DNA of 64,000 nt from Escherichia coli. Lineage in GTDB: Bacteria > Pseudomonadota > Gammaproteobacteria > Enterobacterales > Enterobacteriaceae. The DNA lies in NCBI RefSeq assembly GCF_001677475.2, contig NZ_CP012497.1. One strand, given 5' to 3'. Shown here one piece after another: positions 2,594 through 11,323 of the stretch (its first letter is position 1; each line of letters opens with the position of its first letter). Made by a program: the position numbers and the translations under genes. A model generated the notes under the pieces. It worked only from the letters and a program-made list of their open reading frames with translations, made no database searches and was not told where the DNA came from.

Positions 2594-3962
2594 TAATAAT
2601 CCTCTTGCCAGTCAGCACCGGCATAGTTATCAAACCGTGAGTATTGGCCGTTAAAAGCCAATCTCACCGTGCCAATTGGGCCATTTCGTTGCTTACCGAT
2701 AATTACCTCGGCAATGCCCTTCATTTCGCTATCCGGGTGATAAACTTCGTCACGATACAGAAACATGATCAGGTCTGCGTCCTGCTCAATTGCTCCTGAT
2801 TCACGTAAATCTGAATTTACCGGTCGTTTGTCCGCACGCTGTTCAAGCGATCGATTAAGTTGTGACAATGCCACCACCGGTACTTGTAATTCCTTCGCCA
2901 AAGCCTTCAGTGAGCGAGAAATCTCGGCAATTTCCAGCGTTCGGTTATCTTGCAGCTCGGGGACGCGCATAAGTTGCAGGTAGTCGATCATAATCATGCT
3001 CAAACCACCATTTTCTTTATAAACACGACGAGCGCGGGAACGAAGCTCTGTAGGTGTCAGGGCGCTTGAGTCATCAATAAAAATATTCTGCTTGTCCAAC
3101 AGAATCCCCATTGCGCCAGAAACCCGCGCCCAATCCTCGTCGTTAAGTTGCCCTGTTCGAATACGAGTCTGATCAACGCGTGCAAGAGAAGCCAGTGAGC
3201 GCATCATCAGCTGGTGGCTCGGCATCTCAAGGCTAAAAACCAATACGGGCTTATCGTTACGGACTGCGGCATTTTCGACGAGATTCATCGCAAACGTAGT
3301 CTTCCCCATCGATGGGCGGGCGGCGACAATAATGAGATCGGACGCCTGAAGTCCTGCCGTCTTCTTATTGAGATCGGTAAATCCGGTATCAAGCCCGTTA
3401 CACCATCATGCGGTCGCTGAAACAACTCTTCTATGCGAGATACCGTTGCATCGAGAATGCTGGCGATATCTTTTGGACCACTACCGCTCTTTTGTCGTTT
3501 TTCAGCTATTTCAAAAACGCGGCGCTCGGCCATATCCAGCAATTCATTGCTGCCCCTGCCATCCTGCGCATATCCAGCTTCAGCTATTTCATTTGCGACG
3601 GAAATCATTTCACGAACAACCGCGCGTTCACGAACGATATCCGCATAAGCACAAATATTTGCCGCGCTGGGCGTGTTCTTTGACATCTCCGCAAGGTACG
3701 CAAAACCACCGGCGCGTTCTAATTTACCGTTCTGTTCAAGTGCTTCAGCAAGTGTTATCAAATCAATCGGTTTGCCATGACTTAATAACCTCTCCATCTC
3801 ACTGAAAATTTCACGATGAGCACTGGTATAAAAATCATCAGCAACTATACGATCTGCAACTTCATCCCAGCGGCAGTTATCAAGCATTAAGCCACCAAGT
3901 ACAGCTTGTTCTGCACTAAGGGAATTTGGCATGGATTCAAGAGGGGATGCAGACATTAGCAC
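2593..3962 (-). CDS. ban: DnaB-family replicative helicase (P1 Ban-like), frame broken by a 1-nt indel
   Basis: N-terminal ORF 3285-3962 matches the DnaB N-domain up to HDGVTG; C-terminal ORF 2593-3309 starts MGKTTFAMNLVENAA (Walker A) with full RecA-like core; an alternate frame reads DTGFTDLNKKTAGLQASDLIIVAARPS bridging them; break at about 3388-3392. Confidence 0.85.
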
Positions 3963-4241
3963 TCCACCCAGGCGTGCTGAATGTCAGATATAATCGGCAT
4001 ACTCAAATCACTCCTAACGATATGAGTCATCACCAGAAAATCAGGATTAATGCGCCGGACTCTTCCCGGCTGTCACACCGAATCGCCAGGATGGTGAGTC
4101 CCTGTATCCGCTATCCCTCCAACGGTGACTTGCACATTTCGGCTACCTGGTTTGTTGCCTGAGCTAGGGGAAAAGGTAACCCCTTTAACGTTACCAGACC
4201 GCTAACGACGCATGTGCCAGACGCCGTGTTACAACCAAATA

Positions 4242-4317
4242 TGGTGGCCCCTACCGGACTTGAACCGGTGACCGTGCGATTATGAGTCGCCAGCTCTAAC
4301 CACTGAGCTAAAGGGCC
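4242..4317 (-). tRNA. trnI: tRNA with CAU anticodon (Ile2/lysidine-type-like, or Met)
   Basis: Reverse complement folds as a cloverleaf GGCCCTT..GCTCAGTGGTTAGAGC..CTCATAA..GGTTCAAGTCCGG..AGGGGCCACCA; close to the E. coli ileX sequence as recalled; CCA encoded. Confidence 0.8.
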
Positions 4318-4320
4318 GGA

Positions 4321-4428
4321 TTACTGTTTCCTAAGTGCTTCAATGGCGCTAACAATACCGCCTACAACTATGGCAACAATGATAATGAGAACAATTGGAT
4401 ACTTATCTGCAAAATCCCAGAAGCTCAT
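4321..4428 (-). CDS. tiny hydrophobic membrane protein (35 aa)
   Basis: Hand-translated MSFWDFADKYPIVLIIIVAIVVGGIVSAIEALRKQ; start ATG overlaps the upstream stop (TGATG); not in the ORF track because under 60 aa. Confidence 0.35.
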   Translation of the reverse strand: MSFWDFADKYPIVLIIIVAIVVGGIVSAIEALRKQ

Positions 4429-4592
4429 CACTGATCCTTCGAGGCTGGTTTAAATATCGGCCATACCAATGTTACAGCTACTGCTACCAACGCCCCGTCG
4501 GATAAAACCGACAGGATTGTGCTGGTGAAATCCACCAGCACAGATAGCACGAGAAAAACCAAAGCCAGAATTAGACGTGCTTTTATAACCAT
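4428..4592 (-). CDS. small membrane protein (54 aa)
   Basis: Hand-translated MVIKARLILALVFLVLSVLVDFTSTILSVLSDGALVAVAVTLVWPIFKPASKDQ; start overlaps the TerB-like stop (TGATG), suggesting translational coupling. Confidence 0.4.
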   Translation of the reverse strand: MVIKARLILALVFLVLSVLVDFTSTILSVLSDGALVAVAVTLVWPIFKPASKDQ

Positions 4593-5017
4593 CAGATATA
4601 CTGTTCCAGTGGCAATTGAAGAGCCTGGGCAATTTTCTTCAATTGCTCCTGCTCTTCTGCCCCAATGCCATCCTGGTCAGCAATATCAATGCATAGGCAC
4701 AGAACATCTACCGCATCATTAGTTCCAGACACGTCAGCCAGTTCACGTAAAGCCTGGGCATTCGCTCGGCGCGGCGAGGCTTCATATTGAGCGCGAATAT
4801 TGGCGCTCATCTGGGCAATTTCACCGGAGAACGGCGCAAAGGCAGGAAGTGCTGCAATGGTTTTTTCCAATACTGCAATTTCTTTCGCATCGCAGGTGCC
4901 GTCAGAGTATGCAATGGAATATGCGCCCCAGACAGTCGCTTCCACCGCATCACGGTTTTCCATCTTCTTGACTCCGCCAGCCGCTTTGCGGAATTTCTTT
5001 TTGAGAATACCGAGCAT
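4592..5017 (-). CDS. TerB-like protein (P1 Tci-type)
   Basis: 141-aa ORF with TerB-domain character (AYSDGTCDAKEIAVLEKTIAALP, acidic C-terminus); position between the tRNAs and ban matches the P1 tci cluster. Confidence 0.55.
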   Translation of the reverse strand: MLGILKKKFRKAAGGVKKMENRDAVEATVWGAYSIAYSDGTCDAKEIAVLEKTIAALPAFAPFSGEIAQMSANIRAQYEASPRRANAQALRELADVSGTNDAVDVLCLCIDIADQDGIGAEEQEQLKKIAQALQLPLEQYI

Positions 5018-5193
5018 TTATTAACCTCATTACTGGTTGGGAAATAAGGTTGCGGTGCCGGGTGCCTCCCGGTGTCCTTTGGCTGGTTATCCACCGTGGA
5101 CGGGGAAATAAGGAGAAATAATGGACAGATATAACCATTTCCCCGCGTGCGCTTAGCCGCATTCACCGCAACGGAAAGAGCATTCCTGGTGGA

Positions 5194-5944
5194 CCTGTAG
5201 ATTGGGATATGAACCCGTTACAGGAGAATGCTCTTACCTGTTACGTGCTCCGTTTCGTGGAGCTAACGGCGGGTGATCGGGCCGCACCAGACTGGACTTA
5301 TTTCAGCGTTATGCTCATGCCAGAGAATCAAACTGTGATGGTCGGTGCTGAACTCCGACACAGGGTTGTAGCAAGCCCCGCAAAGCGCGCACTACTGTAG
5401 TTGCGGCACATCAGCCTGTGCATTCACCACAATGTTGAGAACACTGGTTGTCACGCTGCAACGCAACATTTATTCGTAGATTGGGATATGACCCCGTTAC
5501 GCCAGTGTTCTCAACGTTGTAGTGCCGGTTACGGTTCCGGCCAGGCCTCTTCCTCAACGGGGTGTTCTCCATACGGACTACCGTTTATTGGTCGTTCCTG
5601 CGGTTTATGTTGTGAAGCCAGATGCTTATCTTCTGGTTGCTTCAAAGAGCTGCACTTCATCACAACGGTAAGAGCACTCGATGCATTTAAGCCAAGCCCC
5701 ATAAGGGAGAATGCCCTTACCTGTTGTGTTGTGATGACCGGTGCTGATCTCCGGCTTGCGGTTATTTCAGACTCTCACGGGCGTTTAATTGCCCCGCCGA
5801 ACAGCTCTTTTCCGCAATAGCTGCAATGTCTTTCGCGCATCAGCCTGCGCATTCATCACAACGGTAAGGGTACTTCGTAGGGATTCGAACCCTCTGCCAA
5901 GCTCGGCGATCTCCGACGTCGCAAAATACCCTTACCTGTTGTGC
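5194..5944. repeat. array of short repeats and tRNA-like remnants
   Basis: Two copies of a 25-bp palindrome-flanked core GTAGATTGGGATATGA(A/C)CCCGTTAC (5194-5224, 5475-5501); motif CCTTACCTGTTGTG/CTTACCTGTTACG at 5225-5250, 5706-5738, 5921-5944 and again at 6365-6390; no convincing ORF. Confidence 0.4.
5868..5931 (-). other. tRNA-like fragment (T-arm and acceptor remnant)
   Basis: Contains GGTTCGAATCC T-loop and a D-arm-like GCGA..TCGC, but does not fold into a complete cloverleaf. Confidence 0.3.
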
Positions 5945-6020
5945 TGGTGCCGATTAACGGACTCGAACCGCTGACATCCTGCTTACAAGGCAGGCGCTCT
6001 ACCAACTGAGCTAAACCGGC
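5945..6020 (-). tRNA. trnT: tRNA-Thr (anticodon UGU)
   Basis: Reverse complement GCCGGTTTAGCTCAGTTGGTAGAGCGCCTGCCTTGTAAGCAGGATGTCAGCGGTTCGAGTCCGTTAATCGGCACCA folds as a canonical cloverleaf, CCA encoded. Confidence 0.85.
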
Positions 6021-6025
6021 ATTGG

Positions 6026-6098
6026 CGATGGTGGATGGATTTGAACCATCGACCCGTTGATTAACAGTCAACCGCTCTAACCGCTGAGCTACACCATC
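6026..6098 (-). tRNA. trnA: tRNA-Asn (anticodon GUU)
   Basis: Reverse complement GATGGTGTAGCTCAGCGGTTAGAGCGGTTGACTGTTAATCAACGGGTCGATGGTTCAAATCCATCCACCATCG folds as a cloverleaf; 5 nt from the tRNA-Thr. Confidence 0.85.
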
Positions 6099-6763: not shown

Positions 6764-6780
6764 AAATTTATTAGAGCAAT
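6764..6780. promoter_or_regulatory. P1 C1 repressor operator, perfect consensus match, with overlapping promoter for the tRNA-tci-ban operon
   Basis: Reverse complement is ATTGCTCTAATAAATTT (17/17 to the C1 operator consensus); just downstream of the dmt stop and upstream of the tRNAs on the minus strand. Confidence 0.7.
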
Positions 6781-6799
6781 ATACCCAAAACGTCATGAG

Positions 6800-9700
6800 C
6801 TACACCTCGAGTGTCCCCTTACAAGACACAGAACGTCTGGCAAAAAGAGGTTCCACTCTGAAGCCACTGTCATGATAAAGCTCTCTGATGTTTGGCGCGC
6901 CACTGTTAGTAATGAGAACCTTTGCACCTCGACGATGAGCATCCGTCAACAGAGACACCAGGCGTTTTTGCTCTTCAAACTTAAAGTCATGACCGGAATA
7001 GTTCGTGAATCCCTCTGTATTTGGAAGCGGTTCATACGGCGGATCGCAAAAGATGACATCTCCTTCTCCGGCAGCTTCAATCACCGCTGCAAAATCACCG
7101 CATACAAACTCAGACCGCCCTTCCGCACCGAGGAAGGCTTCCATCTCCTGTAATGGGAAATACGGAGTTTTATACTTCCCGTAACCGACATTGAACTCAC
7201 CGGCCTGGTTGTAACGCGTCAATCCGTTAAAACAATGTCGGTTCAGGAACAAAAACGCCGCTGCGCGATGTAAATCATCATAGACTTGTTTGTTAAACGC
7301 ATTCCGTACTGCCAGGTATCCTTCCTGTGTGTTGTAGTCCTGGAAGAAACGATGTGCCAGAGTGATAAGTGAATGCGCCTCGCGTTGCAGAGTCTTGTAA
7401 AAGTTAATCAGGTCAGCATTCACATCATTTAGCAGATTTTCCTGGTATCCGGCATTCATGAAGACAGCTCCGCCACCAACGAAAGGTTCAATCAGGCGCT
7501 TCCCTTCTGGCAAATAGCGAAAGATTTGTTCCAGAACACCAAATTTTCCACCAGCCCATTTGAATATGGACCGTTCGAATTCTGCCGCTGGTTTAACTTT
7601 TCGCTCTTTTGTTTCACTTCCTTCTTTCTGCCGACATACGGCCTTAGTAATCCGATCGCCAATCCAGCGCATTACTGGTATTGCCATACTATTGCCGATC
7701 GCTTTGTAACGCGGTCCGTCAGCTGCAAGCATCGCGGCCTCTTCTTCGCTTAAATCTGGATAGTGATTGCGAAGATATGCCAGTTCATCTGAATTAACTT
7801 TTTTACGCTTTTCCGTCGGGATCAACGTATGCCCATCAGGAAAACCTTGCAGCCTTTCACATTCGACAGGGGTAAGACGGCGGACAGCTACTTCTGCGTT
7901 TCTTACTTCATAGCAAACAGCTGTTGGATTTTTAGCCATTAGAGATGGTGAAGTATTCTTAGTTGCAGCATGTTGTGTACCGCTCATACGCTCAGGAAAA
8001 GCCAATGTAACAAGATGCTCATGGCTTTCTTGCTCACGTGCCCGCAATGTACCATGCCCTTCTGACCAAAAACCTGCTCCTGTGCTGCTAAAAACGGCAA
8101 GGTCAGTGGCATCTTTAAAATCTCTTGCCTTTACTGTCGATGCGGTTTCATCGTCAATATATTCCCCAAATGCCGCCATCCTGAAAGCGTTTACGGCTTT
8201 CGTCGATTTCATACCGGGTGGCATGTCAGCGTGTAGGCATGGATTTAGGCTTTCGCCACTGATTGCAGCGCCATTTGCAATAATGGCGGAAGCGATTTCC
8301 TTCTTTTTTCGGCTCGGCGCAATATTCCGGCGCACGCCTTCGAACTCAAAAAGTACCGTTGCGGGATCGAGGTCTGTTCGAGCACTTGCGACAACAAACA
8401 CGCGTCGGCGTCGTTGTGCCACTCCGAAGTATTGGGCATCAAGGATTCTCCAGGCCACCTTTCGCTGCGGTCCATAAATACAACCACACTGCGGCCACTT
8501 TGGAGCATGGCAACCGGTTTTGCCATCCCACCGCCAGAACGCGTTACTTTTTCCTGATTCAGGTCGATCACCTGGTTCAAATGGCGCATCTTCTCCAGCC
8601 AATCCGGCAAGGAAACATCCGAAGGCGTTATCTGCCGATGACAGGACTCCTGGGACATTTTCCCAGACGATAACTGTCGGTTTGAGGAAGGACTCAGACC
8701 GTTTGTCGTCAATTGCATTTGCAAGCTCCACATACTTCAAAGTTAGCGCGCCGCGTTCATCATCAAGCCCACCACGTAAGCCCGCGATACTGAATGCCTG
8801 ACAGTTATGGACCACCGCACCATTGAGGATATAGGAATGATCACCTTCGACTTCTATGTTGTATACAGTATCTAGGCCTACCGATTTAAACTCTTTGACT
8901 GTTCGTAAAAGCATTCCATGAGCCAATCTTGATTTACGTGACAATTTCTGCGGGCAGATTGTTACCTGATAATAATTCCGTTGATTTACCACGCGATCCT
9001 CGATCACTTTTTTGGGCTCAACTTCAATAAAGCTGACCGAAGAAACATAACCACAAGTCTGTGACAACCCCGCAACGCCCCAAGCAAGCGCAGGACTAAC
9101 ACTATTAATTCTAAATCCCGCTTTACCACTTGGTGTCCCATCAGTATCAAGATAGCCTTGTAAAAACACATGACGCAATGGATGCGACATCACCCATGCA
9201 GGGATACGCTTAGCATGGCTTAACTCGCCAAAATGTTCATTAAGCCAATTGGCATAACACGTATCATTCAAGGTTACTTTGATGCTCCCTCGGATTTCGC
9301 TTGCCACGGAAAATATGTTTTCTGGTATGCGGCAATGAAACTTTCTCAATTTCTGGCAATTTATGCCAAAAACAACCGCCTTCTTAGATTTACCTCTCCA
9401 TCTCCTAATATATCCATCGCCAACATAAGCGCCCGCAAGATACATAGCCTGTTCTTCAGACAAGAACCGAGAACAAATATCTGGAGATGCAATATTGAAA
9501 TTAGTTAGAGCGCACCATTGATATCCCGGCATATCACATGCTGCTCGCCATTCCGGTTCAGACAACAACTCTCTCTTAAAATATGTGCCATTTTTCCGGG
9601 TGTTTTGGGCTTTCCACCGAACAGCCAGGAAGGGATGGTCATTGGTTGTTCTTATACCTAAAGGCTGCCCAACGGCATTAAGTAACCCCGTATTAGCTAT

Positions 9701-10056
9701 TTTTGAACCAACTCTTTTTACTTGTTGTAACCGCCCGAGATGACTGACTACGTAATCGCCAGGGCAAACATCTTCTATTGGTTTATAACCATTTTTACAA
9801 AGAACCATATGCCCCGCGGTAAAACATGGTGTTCCCCGACGAGCACGTCAGGGGATTCGATTTCCCCAGCCAAGACTTTTTTGGCAAGTTTTGTCATGTC
9901 GCCAAGGTTGGCGACATGGGGCCAGCGGAGCGCAAGAACGGCAGATGGAAAAGGCTCGATTTCAGCAAACCACGCCGGACGCATACCCAACGGTTCCCAG
10001 GCAATACTCGCGGCTTCAATTCCACTGCAAACAGATCCATAGCACAGCTCTTTCAC
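6800..10056 (-). CDS. dmt: bifunctional DNA methyltransferase (C5-cytosine domain plus Dam-like N6-adenine domain), intein-containing, frame broken near 9834-9837
   Basis: C5-MTase motifs [40 protein letters not shown]; Dam motifs FVGGGAV and DPPY at the C-terminus; GTG start overlaps the hrdC stop; the N-terminal 77 codons are in a different frame, joined across a C-run. Confidence 0.85.
8804..9826 (-). mobile_element. intein with LAGLIDADG homing-endonuclease domain, inserted at the catalytic Cys of the C5-MTase
   Basis: 341-aa insertion starting CFTAGHMVL and ending ILNGAVVHN followed by Cys+1 of CQAFSIAG; LAGLIDADG-like motifs [13 protein letters not shown] and [11 protein letters not shown]. 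Confidence 0.75.
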
Positions 10057-11306: not shown

Positions 11307-11323
11307 ATATTCATTAGAGCAAT
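11307..11323. promoter_or_regulatory. C1 operator-like site upstream of hrdC-dmt
   Basis: Reverse complement ATTGCTCTAATGAATAT, partial match to the C1 consensus, in an AT-rich intergenic region. Confidence 0.4.

What the first reader, a model, noticed from the sequence alone, without database searches (positions are those of the whole stretch)
8804..9826. Intein with LAGLIDADG homing endonuclease inserted at the catalytic cysteine of the Dmt C5-methyltransferase
The minus-strand dmt ORF reads as a C5-cytosine MTase (motif [13 protein letters not shown], then [20 protein letters not shown]) fused to a Dam-like domain (FVGGGAV, DPPY). Between GTP and the motif IV residues CQAFSIAG sits a 341-aa insertion that begins [14 protein letters not shown] and ends [10 protein letters not shown], followed directly by Cys. 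These are canonical intein splice junctions (Cys1, His-Asn, Cys+1), and the insert has two LAGLIDADG-like motifs ([24 protein letters not shown]). Removing it restores [11 protein letters not shown] and leaves about 745 aa, close to the intein-free P1 Dmt size as I recall it. Insertion at a catalytic residue is typical intein behaviour, but I do not know of one described in a P1-family methyltransferase.
Basis: partly seen in the sequence, partly recalled or inferred. Interest (0 to 1): 0.8.

Follow-up and report, generated by a model that had tools for sequence, protein, structure and literature searches.

The report
Intein in P1-family Dmt methyltransferase gene
A self-splicing protein element (an intein carrying a LAGLIDADG homing endonuclease) sits immediately before the catalytic cysteine of the cytosine-methyltransferase half of the Dmt gene of this P1-like phage-plasmid; it is a well-supported but ordinary kind of selfish element, apparently undescribed for P1 relatives, and in this window the host gene is also broken by what look like homopolymer sequencing errors.

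Summary
The 341-codon insert at 8804..9826 (minus strand) is real and the coordinates are exact. It runs Cys1 (CFTAGH) to His-Asn, followed by Cys+1, the Cys of the C5-methyltransferase PCQ motif IV. Pfam (Hint_2, LAGLIDADG_3, Intein_splicing), NCBIfam intein_Cterm and an AlphaFold model (pLDDT 93) whose best PDB matches are PI-SceI and other intein endonucleases all agree.

After repairing two homopolymer indels and removing the insert, the product is 754 aa, 749/754 identical to reference P1 Dmt.

A G5 run 8 nt upstream of the intein is G4 here. None of 93 matching plasmid records has G4, and gp6, ban, upfB and the dmt 3' end carry similar homopolymer contractions, so I read this as sequencing error.

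The intein occurs in about 27% of P1-like plasmids in PLSDB and in 151 of 5426 complete E. coli genomes. It is identical in divergent dmt backgrounds and has lower GC than its flanks, which fits a mobile element.

Related inteins occupy the same P|C site in C5-methyltransferases of Mannheimia, Propionibacterium and jumbo coliphages. Verdict: a new member of a known kind. Splicing and homing are inferred, not shown.

The parts
6771..10056 (-). dmt precursor gene (C5-MTase domain + intein + Dam/D12 domain). As sequenced it is broken by two 1-nt homopolymer contractions. Repaired, it gives a 1095-aa precursor.
   Evidence: Pfam on the intact orthologue: PF00145 split at model position 71, MethyltransfD12 E=4.6e-56.
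9827..10056 (-). N-extein (77 codons in relatives): C5-MTase motif I ([10 protein letters not shown]) through ...DVLVGGTP.
9834..9837 (-). G4 homopolymer (C4 on the + strand) where all relatives have G5. It puts the N-extein out of frame with the intein. Probable sequencing error.
   Evidence: None of 93 plasmid records has the G4 version. Similar contractions break gp6, ban and upfB.
8804..9826 (-). Intein, 341 aa, class-1 type: Hint splicing domain interrupted by a LAGLIDADG homing-endonuclease domain.
9785..9826 (-). Block A, with Cys1 at 9824-9826 ([14 protein letters not shown]).
   Evidence: C1, F2, A4 and G5 are invariant in 12 homologues. Hint_2 matches residues 1-49.
9635..9646 (-). 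Block B TxxH motif (T61-N-D-H64).
   Evidence: T61 and H64 are invariant.
9407..9445 (-). First LAGLIDADG motif ([13 protein letters not shown], residues 128-140; acidic residue D137).
   Evidence: The model has a helix at 124-137.
9134..9166 (-). Second LAGLIDADG motif ([11 protein letters not shown], residues 221-231; acidic residue D229).
   Evidence: The model has a helix at 218-229.
8804..8866 (-). Blocks F and G ([19 protein letters not shown]), with penultimate His340 and terminal Asn341.
   Evidence: TIGR01443 above its cutoff. Alignment to the Spl DnaX mini-intein C-terminus..
8801..8803 (-). Cys+1. This is the Cys of the PCQ motif IV, the catalytic nucleophile of C5-MTases by established knowledge of the family.
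6771..8803 (-). C-extein: the rest of the C5-MTase domain (ENVPG, QRRRRVF, variable region, GNSMAIPV) and the Dam-type D12 domain (FVGGGAV, DPPY).
6815..6818 (-). Second G5 to G4 homopolymer contraction. It replaces the last 17 residues of Dmt with a shorter out-of-frame tail.
11307..11323 (-). C1 repressor operator Odmt and adjoining Pdmt promoter of the uhr-hrdC-dmt operon. Coordinates are approximate, with 1 mismatch to P1.
   Evidence: Annotation of NC_005856 and alignment to the window.

Best explanation
The segment is a genuine class-1 intein with an embedded LAGLIDADG homing endonuclease. It is inserted in frame between Pro77 and the motif-IV cysteine of the C5-cytosine-methyltransferase domain of Dmt, the bifunctional C5/Dam methyltransferase of P1-like phage-plasmids.

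Inferred mechanism:
1. dmt is transcribed from the C1-repressed Pdmt operon (uhr-hrdC-dmt) once repression is lifted.
2. A 1095-aa precursor is made in which the C5 domain is split.
3. Cys1 performs the N-S acyl shift. The N-extein is transferred to Cys+1. Asn341 cyclises and releases the intein. An S-N shift then restores GTP-CQAFS, giving the 754-aa Dmt.
4. The freed 39-kDa intein cuts intein-less dmt alleles at the empty site (about GTCGGGGGTACGCCT|TGTCAGGCATTCAGT). Repair copies the intein in, which accounts for its patchy spread among P1-like plasmids.

Shown here: the anatomy, the fold, the precise insertion site, the distribution and the mosaic flanks. Inferred: that splicing and cleavage actually occur.

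The 1-nt frameshift just upstream in this window is most probably a homopolymer sequencing error, not biology.
For: Profiles:
- Hint_2, LAGLIDADG_3 and Intein_splicing hit the insert.
- TIGR01443 scores above its curated cutoff.

Structure:
- AlphaFold2 gives pLDDT 93.4 and pTM 0.90.
- The top Foldseek PDB matches are PI-SceI, the TliVMA and PhoVMA inteins, PI-PfuI and PI-PkoII (E from 1e-16 to 1e-9), followed by I-DmoI and I-SceI.

Catalytic and motif residues:
- C1, T61, H64 and N341 are invariant; LAGLIDADG G132 and G138 are invariant, and D137, G224 and G230 are nearly invariant, across homologues of 29-53% identity.

Precise insertion:
- Intein-less alleles, including reference P1, are 754 aa with continuous [11 protein letters not shown].
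- Intein-bearing alleles are 1095 aa, which is 754 + 341.
- The repaired window product minus the intein is 749/754 identical to P1 Dmt.
- PF00145 is interrupted at one model position.

Mobility signature:
- The intein is in 132 plasmid records, against 363 with the empty site.
- It is in 151 of 5426 complete E. coli genomes, one copy each, all at least 99% identical.
- Window versus L003: 0/1023 differences in the intein against 13/300 in the adjacent C-extein (Fisher p = 3e-9).
- The window's C-extein flank is identical to intein-less L004 and L005, while L003's flank matches intein-less L007.
- The intein also sits in a dmt allele with a different central region, OP279344, with a 1013-aa precursor.
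- GC is 43.0% in the intein against 54.8% and 48.9% in the exteins.

Same site elsewhere:
- Mannheimia phage 587AP2 (47.7% identity), jumbo coliphage A4, Actinobacteria methyltransferases, and a 141-aa mini-intein.

Frameshift as an artefact.
Against: - There is no experimental evidence of splicing, of endonuclease activity or of homing.
- As sequenced, the window's gene cannot make the precursor, because the N-extein is out of frame.
- Copies within the P1 family are at least 99% identical, so they carry no usable signal of purifying selection on the endonuclease.
- Patchiness and mosaic flanks could also arise by ordinary homologous recombination between co-resident P1-like plasmids.
- The residue at the fourth position of block F is Asn (VYNIEV) rather than the Asp I recall as common in class-1 inteins. 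It is invariant in this family, which argues for function but is a deviation.
- dmt is dispensable in Dam+ hosts (PMC12707154), so selection for efficient splicing may be weak.
Confidence: 0.78

Rival explanations
1. The intein is splicing-competent but its homing endonuclease is no longer active, or was never active on P1 dmt. Its patchy distribution would then reflect one old invasion followed by vertical descent and general homologous recombination among P1-like plasmids, not ongoing homing.
For: - All copies are at least 99% identical and there is one per genome, which fits a single recent origin.
- P1-like plasmids are highly mosaic.
- A mini-intein lacking the endonuclease exists at the same site in another methyltransferase (P0023), so endonuclease loss does happen in this family.
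- One homologue has D to N at the second LAGLIDADG acidic position (P0009).
Against: - Both LAGLIDADG motifs and both acidic residues are intact here.
- The endonuclease domain is modelled with high confidence.
- Identical intein sequence abuts divergent flanks, with exchange points within about 20 nt of the junction. That is what homing with short co-conversion tracts produces.
Confidence: 0.15
2. In this particular element dmt is a true pseudogene. The G5 to G4 deletion is real, so neither the precursor nor spliced Dmt is made. At most, reinitiation at Met7 of the intein (the 1002-aa ORF 6800..9808) would give a product able only to undergo C-terminal cleavage.
For: The frameshift is in the sequence as given. 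dmt is dispensable in Dam+ hosts.
Against: - The window carries the same kind of single-base homopolymer contraction in gp6 (299), ban (3394), upfB (12134) and twice in dmt, each splitting a conserved gene.
- None of 93 related plasmid records shares the G4 allele.
- Contractions confined to homopolymers are the typical signature of sequencing error.
Confidence: 0.06
3. The G run is a programmed or phase-variable switch (ribosomal -1 slip or slipped-strand variation) that controls whether the intein-containing Dmt is made.
For: A -1 slip on GUC GGG G would restore V-G-G-T-P exactly; this follows from reading the sequence.
Against: - The site is not a canonical X XXY YYZ heptamer.
- A G4/G5 run is short for slippage.
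- No related record has G4.
- Equivalent contractions occur in unrelated genes of the window.
Confidence: 0.01
4. The insert is a non-splicing Hint or bacterial intein-like domain, retained as a permanent domain of Dmt.
For: Only that splicing has not been demonstrated.
Against: - The junctions are canonical: Cys1, TxxH, His-Asn and Cys+1.
- The insert splits a conserved catalytic motif that must be contiguous for C5-MTase function.
- Most alleles lack it entirely.
- It carries a homing-endonuclease domain.
Confidence: 0.01

Closest known systems
PI-SceI (Saccharomyces VMA1 intein) and the archaeal VMA, PI-PfuI and PI-PkoII inteins
   Same: Bipartite architecture, with a Hint splicing domain interrupted by a two-motif LAGLIDADG endonuclease. 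These are the best structural matches (Foldseek E from 1e-16 to 1e-9). Cys1, terminal Asn and Cys+1 chemistry are shared.
   Different: Only 11-16% sequence identity. The host proteins differ (V-ATPase, ribonucleotide reductase, polymerase). This intein is smaller (341 aa against 360-540). PI-SceI splicing and cleavage are experimentally proven; nothing has been tested here.
Inteins in C-5 DNA methylases of actinobacteriophages (bioRxiv 10.1101/2025.01.02.630785), and the tblastn hits in Propionibacterium phage B22 and EBPR siphovirus 2
   Same: The same host protein family (PF00145 / IPR001525). In the Actinobacteria homologues I could read (P0018, P0021), the insertion point is also immediately before the motif-IV Cys.
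   Different: About 30% identity. The hosts are Gram-positive phages with single-domain methyltransferases, not the bifunctional C5+Dam Dmt of an E. coli phage-plasmid.
Insert in the cytosine-methyltransferase gene of Mannheimia phage vB_MhS_587AP2 (P0011, seen on 578 contigs)
   Same: The closest relative outside the P1 family: 47.7% identity, identical GGTP|CFTAGH...VVHN|CQ junctions, and a 906-nt gene immediately upstream, as hrdC lies upstream of dmt in P1.
   Different: It is annotated as a 'hypothetical protein'. The methyltransferase reading frame is broken just after the intein, and an HNH endonuclease gene follows. There is no Dam domain.
Mycobacteriophage DNMT-1/DNMT-2 inteins (Kelley et al. 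2016, PMC5050341)
   Same: Phage DNA-methylase inteins that fit the rule that phage inteins sit in nucleic-acid enzymes.
   Different: Those exteins are N6/N4 methylases (PF01555), not C5 enzymes.

Membership tests
Class-1 intein | Nucleophile (Cys/Ser/Thr) at intein position 1 | tested here: met
   Cys1 at 9824-9826, invariant in 12 homologues.
Class-1 intein | Block B TxxH | tested here: met
   T61-N-D-H64, with T and H invariant.
Class-1 intein | C-terminal blocks F and G ending in (His-)Asn, followed by a Cys/Ser/Thr +1 residue | tested here: met
   ...NGAVVHN|C. TIGR01443 scores 25.9 bits against a cutoff of 15.6. N341 is invariant; the penultimate His varies (H/K/A/N) in relatives.
Class-1 intein | Hint (horseshoe beta) fold formed by the N- and C-terminal parts | tested here: met
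   AF2 pLDDT 93.4. Foldseek matches intein structures over the full length and mini-inteins over the splicing part. Hint_2 and Intein_splicing Pfam hits.
Class-1 intein | In-frame insertion in a conserved site of a host protein; removing it restores a contiguous, homologous host protein | tested here: met
   754-aa intein-less alleles carry GTPCQAFS. PF00145 is split at model position 71. The product is 749/754 identical to P1 Dmt after removal. In this window the frame is additionally broken 8 nt upstream.
Class-1 intein | Protein splicing actually occurs | not testable with these tools
   Needs expression followed by western blot or mass spectrometry.
LAGLIDADG homing endonuclease (two-motif, monomeric) | Two LAGLIDADG helices, each ending in an acidic residue | tested here: met
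   [10 protein letters not shown]137G and FLQGYLDTD229G. The model has helices at 124-137 and 218-229. The LAGLIDADG_3 Pfam hit is E=4e-4 for the second motif but only 0.34 for the first.
LAGLIDADG homing endonuclease (two-motif, monomeric) | Alpha-beta-beta-alpha-beta-beta-alpha endonuclease fold | tested here: met
   Foldseek matches to I-DmoI, I-SceI and I-AniI over the central domain (E from 1e-4 to 1e-3).
LAGLIDADG homing endonuclease (two-motif, monomeric) | Site-specific cleavage of the intein-less allele, and homing | not testable with these tools
   Only indirect population evidence: 27% occupancy, an identical intein in divergent flanks, and low GC.
P1 Dmt (bifunctional C5 + Dam methyltransferase) | N-terminal PF00145 C5-MTase domain fused to a C-terminal D12-class Dam domain, in the uhr-hrdC-dmt operon next to tRNA-Asn/Thr | tested here: met
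   Pfam. Synteny in relatives, P1 and the window. 749/754 identity to P1 Dmt.

The most novel reading that the evidence does not exclude
The intein is not merely a passenger. Because Cys+1 is the catalytic cysteine of the C5 domain, and Cys1 and Cys+1 could form a disulfide, splicing could act as a conditional (for example redox- or stage-dependent) switch. It would delay C5-methylation while the downstream Dam domain is already present in the precursor. In addition, active homing between co-resident or co-infecting P1-like phage-plasmids could make this a tractable natural intein-homing system in E. coli.
Probability: 0.1. Interest if true: 0.6.

Novelty: new member of a known kind. Interest (0 to 1): 0.4.

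Why it matters
**Annotation.** About a quarter of P1-like phage-plasmids, which are common carriers of resistance genes in E. coli and Salmonella, encode a 1095-aa 'Dam family methyltransferase'. Its extra 341 residues are an unannotated intein. The mature enzyme is the ordinary 754-aa Dmt.

**A possible experimental system.** P1 is one of the most tractable phages, and natural intein-plus and intein-minus alleles exist in near-identical backgrounds. This would allow intein splicing at a catalytic cysteine, and homing between plasmid prophages, to be tested directly in E. coli.

**A recurrent insertion site.** The P|C position of motif IV in C5-methyltransferases is used by inteins across distant phage groups.

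**A practical caveat.** The window's source sequence contains systematic homopolymer errors. Apparent pseudogenes in it should not be over-interpreted.

Tried and rejected
- **Literature.** Searches combining intein with P1, Dmt, P1-like, RCS47, phage-plasmid and cytosine methyltransferase found no description of a Dmt intein. The co-occurrence hits were irrelevant: a Thermus phage ribonucleotide reductase intein, toxin-intein antimicrobials, CASP14 BIL2 and an N4-MTase, and a jumbo phage CBB paper on terminase inteins.
- **Phase variation or programmed frameshift at the G run.** Rejected. No related record has G4, and identical artefact-like contractions occur in other genes.
- **Permanent non-splicing Hint/BIL domain.** Rejected on the junction residues, the split catalytic motif and the fact that most alleles lack the insert.
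- **dN/dS on the endonuclease.** Not attempted. P1-family copies differ at 5 or fewer of 1023 sites, and the next relatives are at about 50% amino-acid identity, where synonymous sites are saturated.
- **Plus-strand ORFs inside the intein** (9233..9508, and 9740..10042, which also overlaps the N-extein). I assumed these are spurious by-products of the coding strand and did not search them.
- **PDB sequence search.** It gave only weak hits (Spl DnaX mini-intein E=0.0014, PI-PkoII E=0.027). The fold search was needed for a clear answer.
Full report
**1. What is in the sequence**

The window is part of a P1-like phage-plasmid. It is about 98% identical to the best records and is not itself in the collections searched.

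On the minus strand, the gene order hrdC–dmt–tRNA-Asn–tRNA-Thr matches P1.

The finding's coordinates are exact:
- TGT (Cys1) lies at 9826-9824.
- CAT-AAC (His340-Asn341) lies at 8809-8804.
- TGT (Cys+1) lies at 8803-8801.

The 341 codons between contain no stop. They read [14 protein letters not shown] … TNDH … [13 protein letters not shown] … [11 protein letters not shown] … [21 protein letters not shown], followed by CQAFSIAG.

**2.

There is no continuous dmt ORF in this window.
- The N-extein ([17 protein letters not shown]…DVLVG, from 10056) is in one frame and terminates soon after (…[21 protein letters not shown]).
- GTPCFTAGH… is in another frame, with a stop 7 codons upstream of Cys1.
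- The cause is a run of four G at 9834-9837. Phage RCS47, 'P1 del res del mod' OP279344 and plasmid CP040069 all have five G there.

A second G5 to G4 contraction at 6815-6818 alters the C-terminus. A T8 to T7 contraction lies just downstream.

Across the first 25 kb, the window shows the same kind of single-base homopolymer contraction in gp6 (299), ban (3394) and upfB (12134). tblastn shows each of these conserved genes split across two frames.

A 91-nt query across the G run found no identical copy among 93 plasmid records. The best hits cover 92 nt at 98.9%, which corresponds to G5.

I therefore treat the frameshift as a homopolymer sequencing error. A real private mutation cannot be excluded without re-sequencing.

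With both runs repaired, the precursor is 1095 aa. Removing the 341-aa insert leaves 754 aa, 749/754 identical to reference P1 Dmt.

**3. Is it an intein?**

Sequence profiles agree.
- Pfam gives Hint_2 (E=5.6e-6, residues 1-49), LAGLIDADG_3 (E=4e-4) and Intein_splicing (E=4.7e-4).
- NCBIfam intein_Cterm scores 25.9 bits against a curated cutoff of 15.6.
- PDB sequence search aligns the C-terminus to the Spl DnaX mini-intein and the centre to PI-PkoII.

I aligned twelve inteins excised from homologues of 29-53% identity. Invariant positions are:
- C1;
- T61 and H64 (block B TxxH);
- G132 and G138, with D137 nearly invariant (first LAGLIDADG motif);
- V321, N323 and D329 (block F);
- N341.

In the second LAGLIDADG motif, G224 and G230 are nearly invariant. 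D229 is present in all endonuclease-bearing members but one.

AlphaFold2 on that alignment gave pLDDT 93.4 and pTM 0.90. Foldseek against the PDB returned PI-SceI, the TliVMA and PhoVMA inteins, PI-PfuI and PI-PkoII as the top 16 hits (E from 1e-16 to 1e-9). Free-standing LAGLIDADG enzymes (I-DmoI, I-SceI) came next.

**4. Insertion site**

Intein-less alleles read …[16 protein letters not shown]… without interruption and encode 754 aa.

On an intact intein-bearing orthologue, the Pfam C5-methylase profile matches residues 8-78 (model 5-71) and 419-476 (model 71-119). The profile is therefore cut at a single model position. The D12 Dam domain follows at 834-1066 (E=4.6e-56).

Cys+1 is thus the Cys of the PCQ motif IV. 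By established knowledge of C5-methyltransferases, this is the catalytic nucleophile. From this I infer that the C5 domain cannot be active before splicing.

**5. Evidence that it is, or recently was, mobile**

- The intein DNA is in 5 phage records and 132 PLSDB plasmids (Escherichia, Salmonella, Shigella). By contrast, 363 of 494 dmt-bearing plasmids have the uninterrupted site. Occupancy is about 27%.
- It is in 151 of 5426 complete E. coli genomes. Each has one copy, full length and at least 99% identical; 147 are on plasmids.
- Window versus CP040069: 0/1023 differences inside the intein against 13 in the first 300 nt of the C-extein (Fisher p = 3e-9).
- The window's C-extein flank is identical to the intein-less alleles L004 and L005. 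CP040069's flank is closest to the intein-less L007.
- The intein also sits in a dmt allele with a different central region (OP279344, 1013-aa precursor).
- GC is 43.0% in the intein, 54.8% in the N-extein and 48.9% in the C-extein.

All of this is what homing with short co-conversion tracts would produce. General recombination among P1-like plasmids is the alternative and is not excluded.

**6. Expression context**

In P1, dmt lies in the uhr-hrdC-dmt operon behind Pdmt, which is controlled by the C1 operator Odmt (annotation of NC_005856). The operator and promoter are conserved in the window, with one operator mismatch.

I infer that the precursor, and hence the endonuclease, is made when C1 repression is lifted. 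That is when other P1-like genomes may be present and replicating.

P1 needs GATC methylation for packaging, and dmt is essential only in Dam- hosts (PMC12707154). Selection on dmt, and on splicing, may therefore be weak in ordinary hosts.

**7. Relatives and what is already known**

Protein search found inteins of 47-52% identity at the identical GGTP|C…HN|CQ site in other PF00145 methyltransferases. These include Mannheimia haemolytica (seen on 578 contigs) and metagenomic sequences. Inteins of about 30% identity occur in Actinobacteria methyltransferases (ASPE|C…N|CTNHS). A 141-aa mini-intein occupies the same site.

tblastn against phages found further members:
- Mannheimia phage 587AP2 (47.7%);
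- Propionibacterium phage B22;
- EBPR siphovirus 2;
- Lactobacillus phage Nyseid;
- jumbo coliphages A4, ph0011 and UE-S1. In A4 the junction is GGFP|CFPAGT…VVHN|CQAWS.

Inteins in phage N6/N4 methylases (PMC5050341) and in actinobacteriophage C-5 methylases (bioRxiv 10.1101/2025.01.02.630785) are published categories.

I found no paper describing the intein of P1-family Dmt. RefSeq annotates the whole precursor as 'Dam family site-specific DNA-(adenine-N6)-methyltransferase'. Some partial proteins are labelled 'Hint domain-containing protein'.

**8. Verdict**

This is a canonical class-1 intein with a LAGLIDADG endonuclease, placed at the catalytic cysteine of the C5 domain of Dmt.

It is a new member of a known kind. 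It is useful for annotation and is potentially a convenient experimental system, but it is not surprising to a specialist. Splicing and homing remain to be shown.

Noticed in passing
window 299, 1592, 3394, 6571, 6815-6818, 9834-9837, 12134: Single-base homopolymer contractions relative to close relatives. They split gp6, ban, upfB and dmt (twice) into two frames. This pattern is typical of homopolymer sequencing error, so other apparent pseudogenes in this window are suspect.
   Followed up: partly
L011 (NC_005856 P1) dmt codon 73, homologous to window about 9834-9839: Reference P1 Dmt reads DVLVWGTPCQ, whereas all other alleles examined read DVLVGGTPCQ. This Gly to Trp change sits at the same G-run, right in front of motif IV. 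It may bear on why C5 activity of P1 Dmt is annotated only as 'perhaps'.
   Followed up: no
L001 (OP279344.1) 2770-5811; L007 (CP083587) 2857-5445: dmt alleles differ in the central region between QRRRRVF and [13 protein letters not shown], presumably the target-recognition domain. OP279344 has a shorter, unrelated segment (1013-aa precursor). L007 encodes an 862-aa intein-less Dmt. This suggests different C5 specificities among P1-like elements.
   Followed up: no
L001/L008 (OP279344.1, 'Escherichia phage P1 isolate del res del mod'): A record named phage P1 carries the intein at 100% identity to the window, whereas reference P1 (NC_005856, AF234172) is intein-less. Laboratory 'P1' stocks evidently differ at dmt.
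   Followed up: partly
P0023 (306-aa protein, residues 115-255): A 141-aa mini-intein without an endonuclease domain at the same GGTP|C…HN|CQ site of another C5-methyltransferase. This is consistent with the endonuclease-loss stage of the intein life cycle.
   Followed up: no
L009 (Mannheimia phage vB_MhS_587AP2) 1362-4584: A 906-nt gene, the same length as P1 hrdC, lies directly upstream of the intein-containing methyltransferase gene. The methyltransferase frame is broken just after the intein (two annotated CDS), and an HNH homing-endonuclease gene follows.
   Followed up: partly
window 4242-4317, 5945-6020, 6023-6098 (minus strand): tRNA-Met(CAT), tRNA-Thr(TGT) and tRNA-Asn(GTT) genes downstream of dmt, as in P1.
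   Followed up: yes
E. coli complete genomes: Four of the 151 intein copies lie on chromosome records rather than plasmids. These could be integrated P1-like elements or assemblies in which the plasmid was joined to the chromosome.
   Followed up: no
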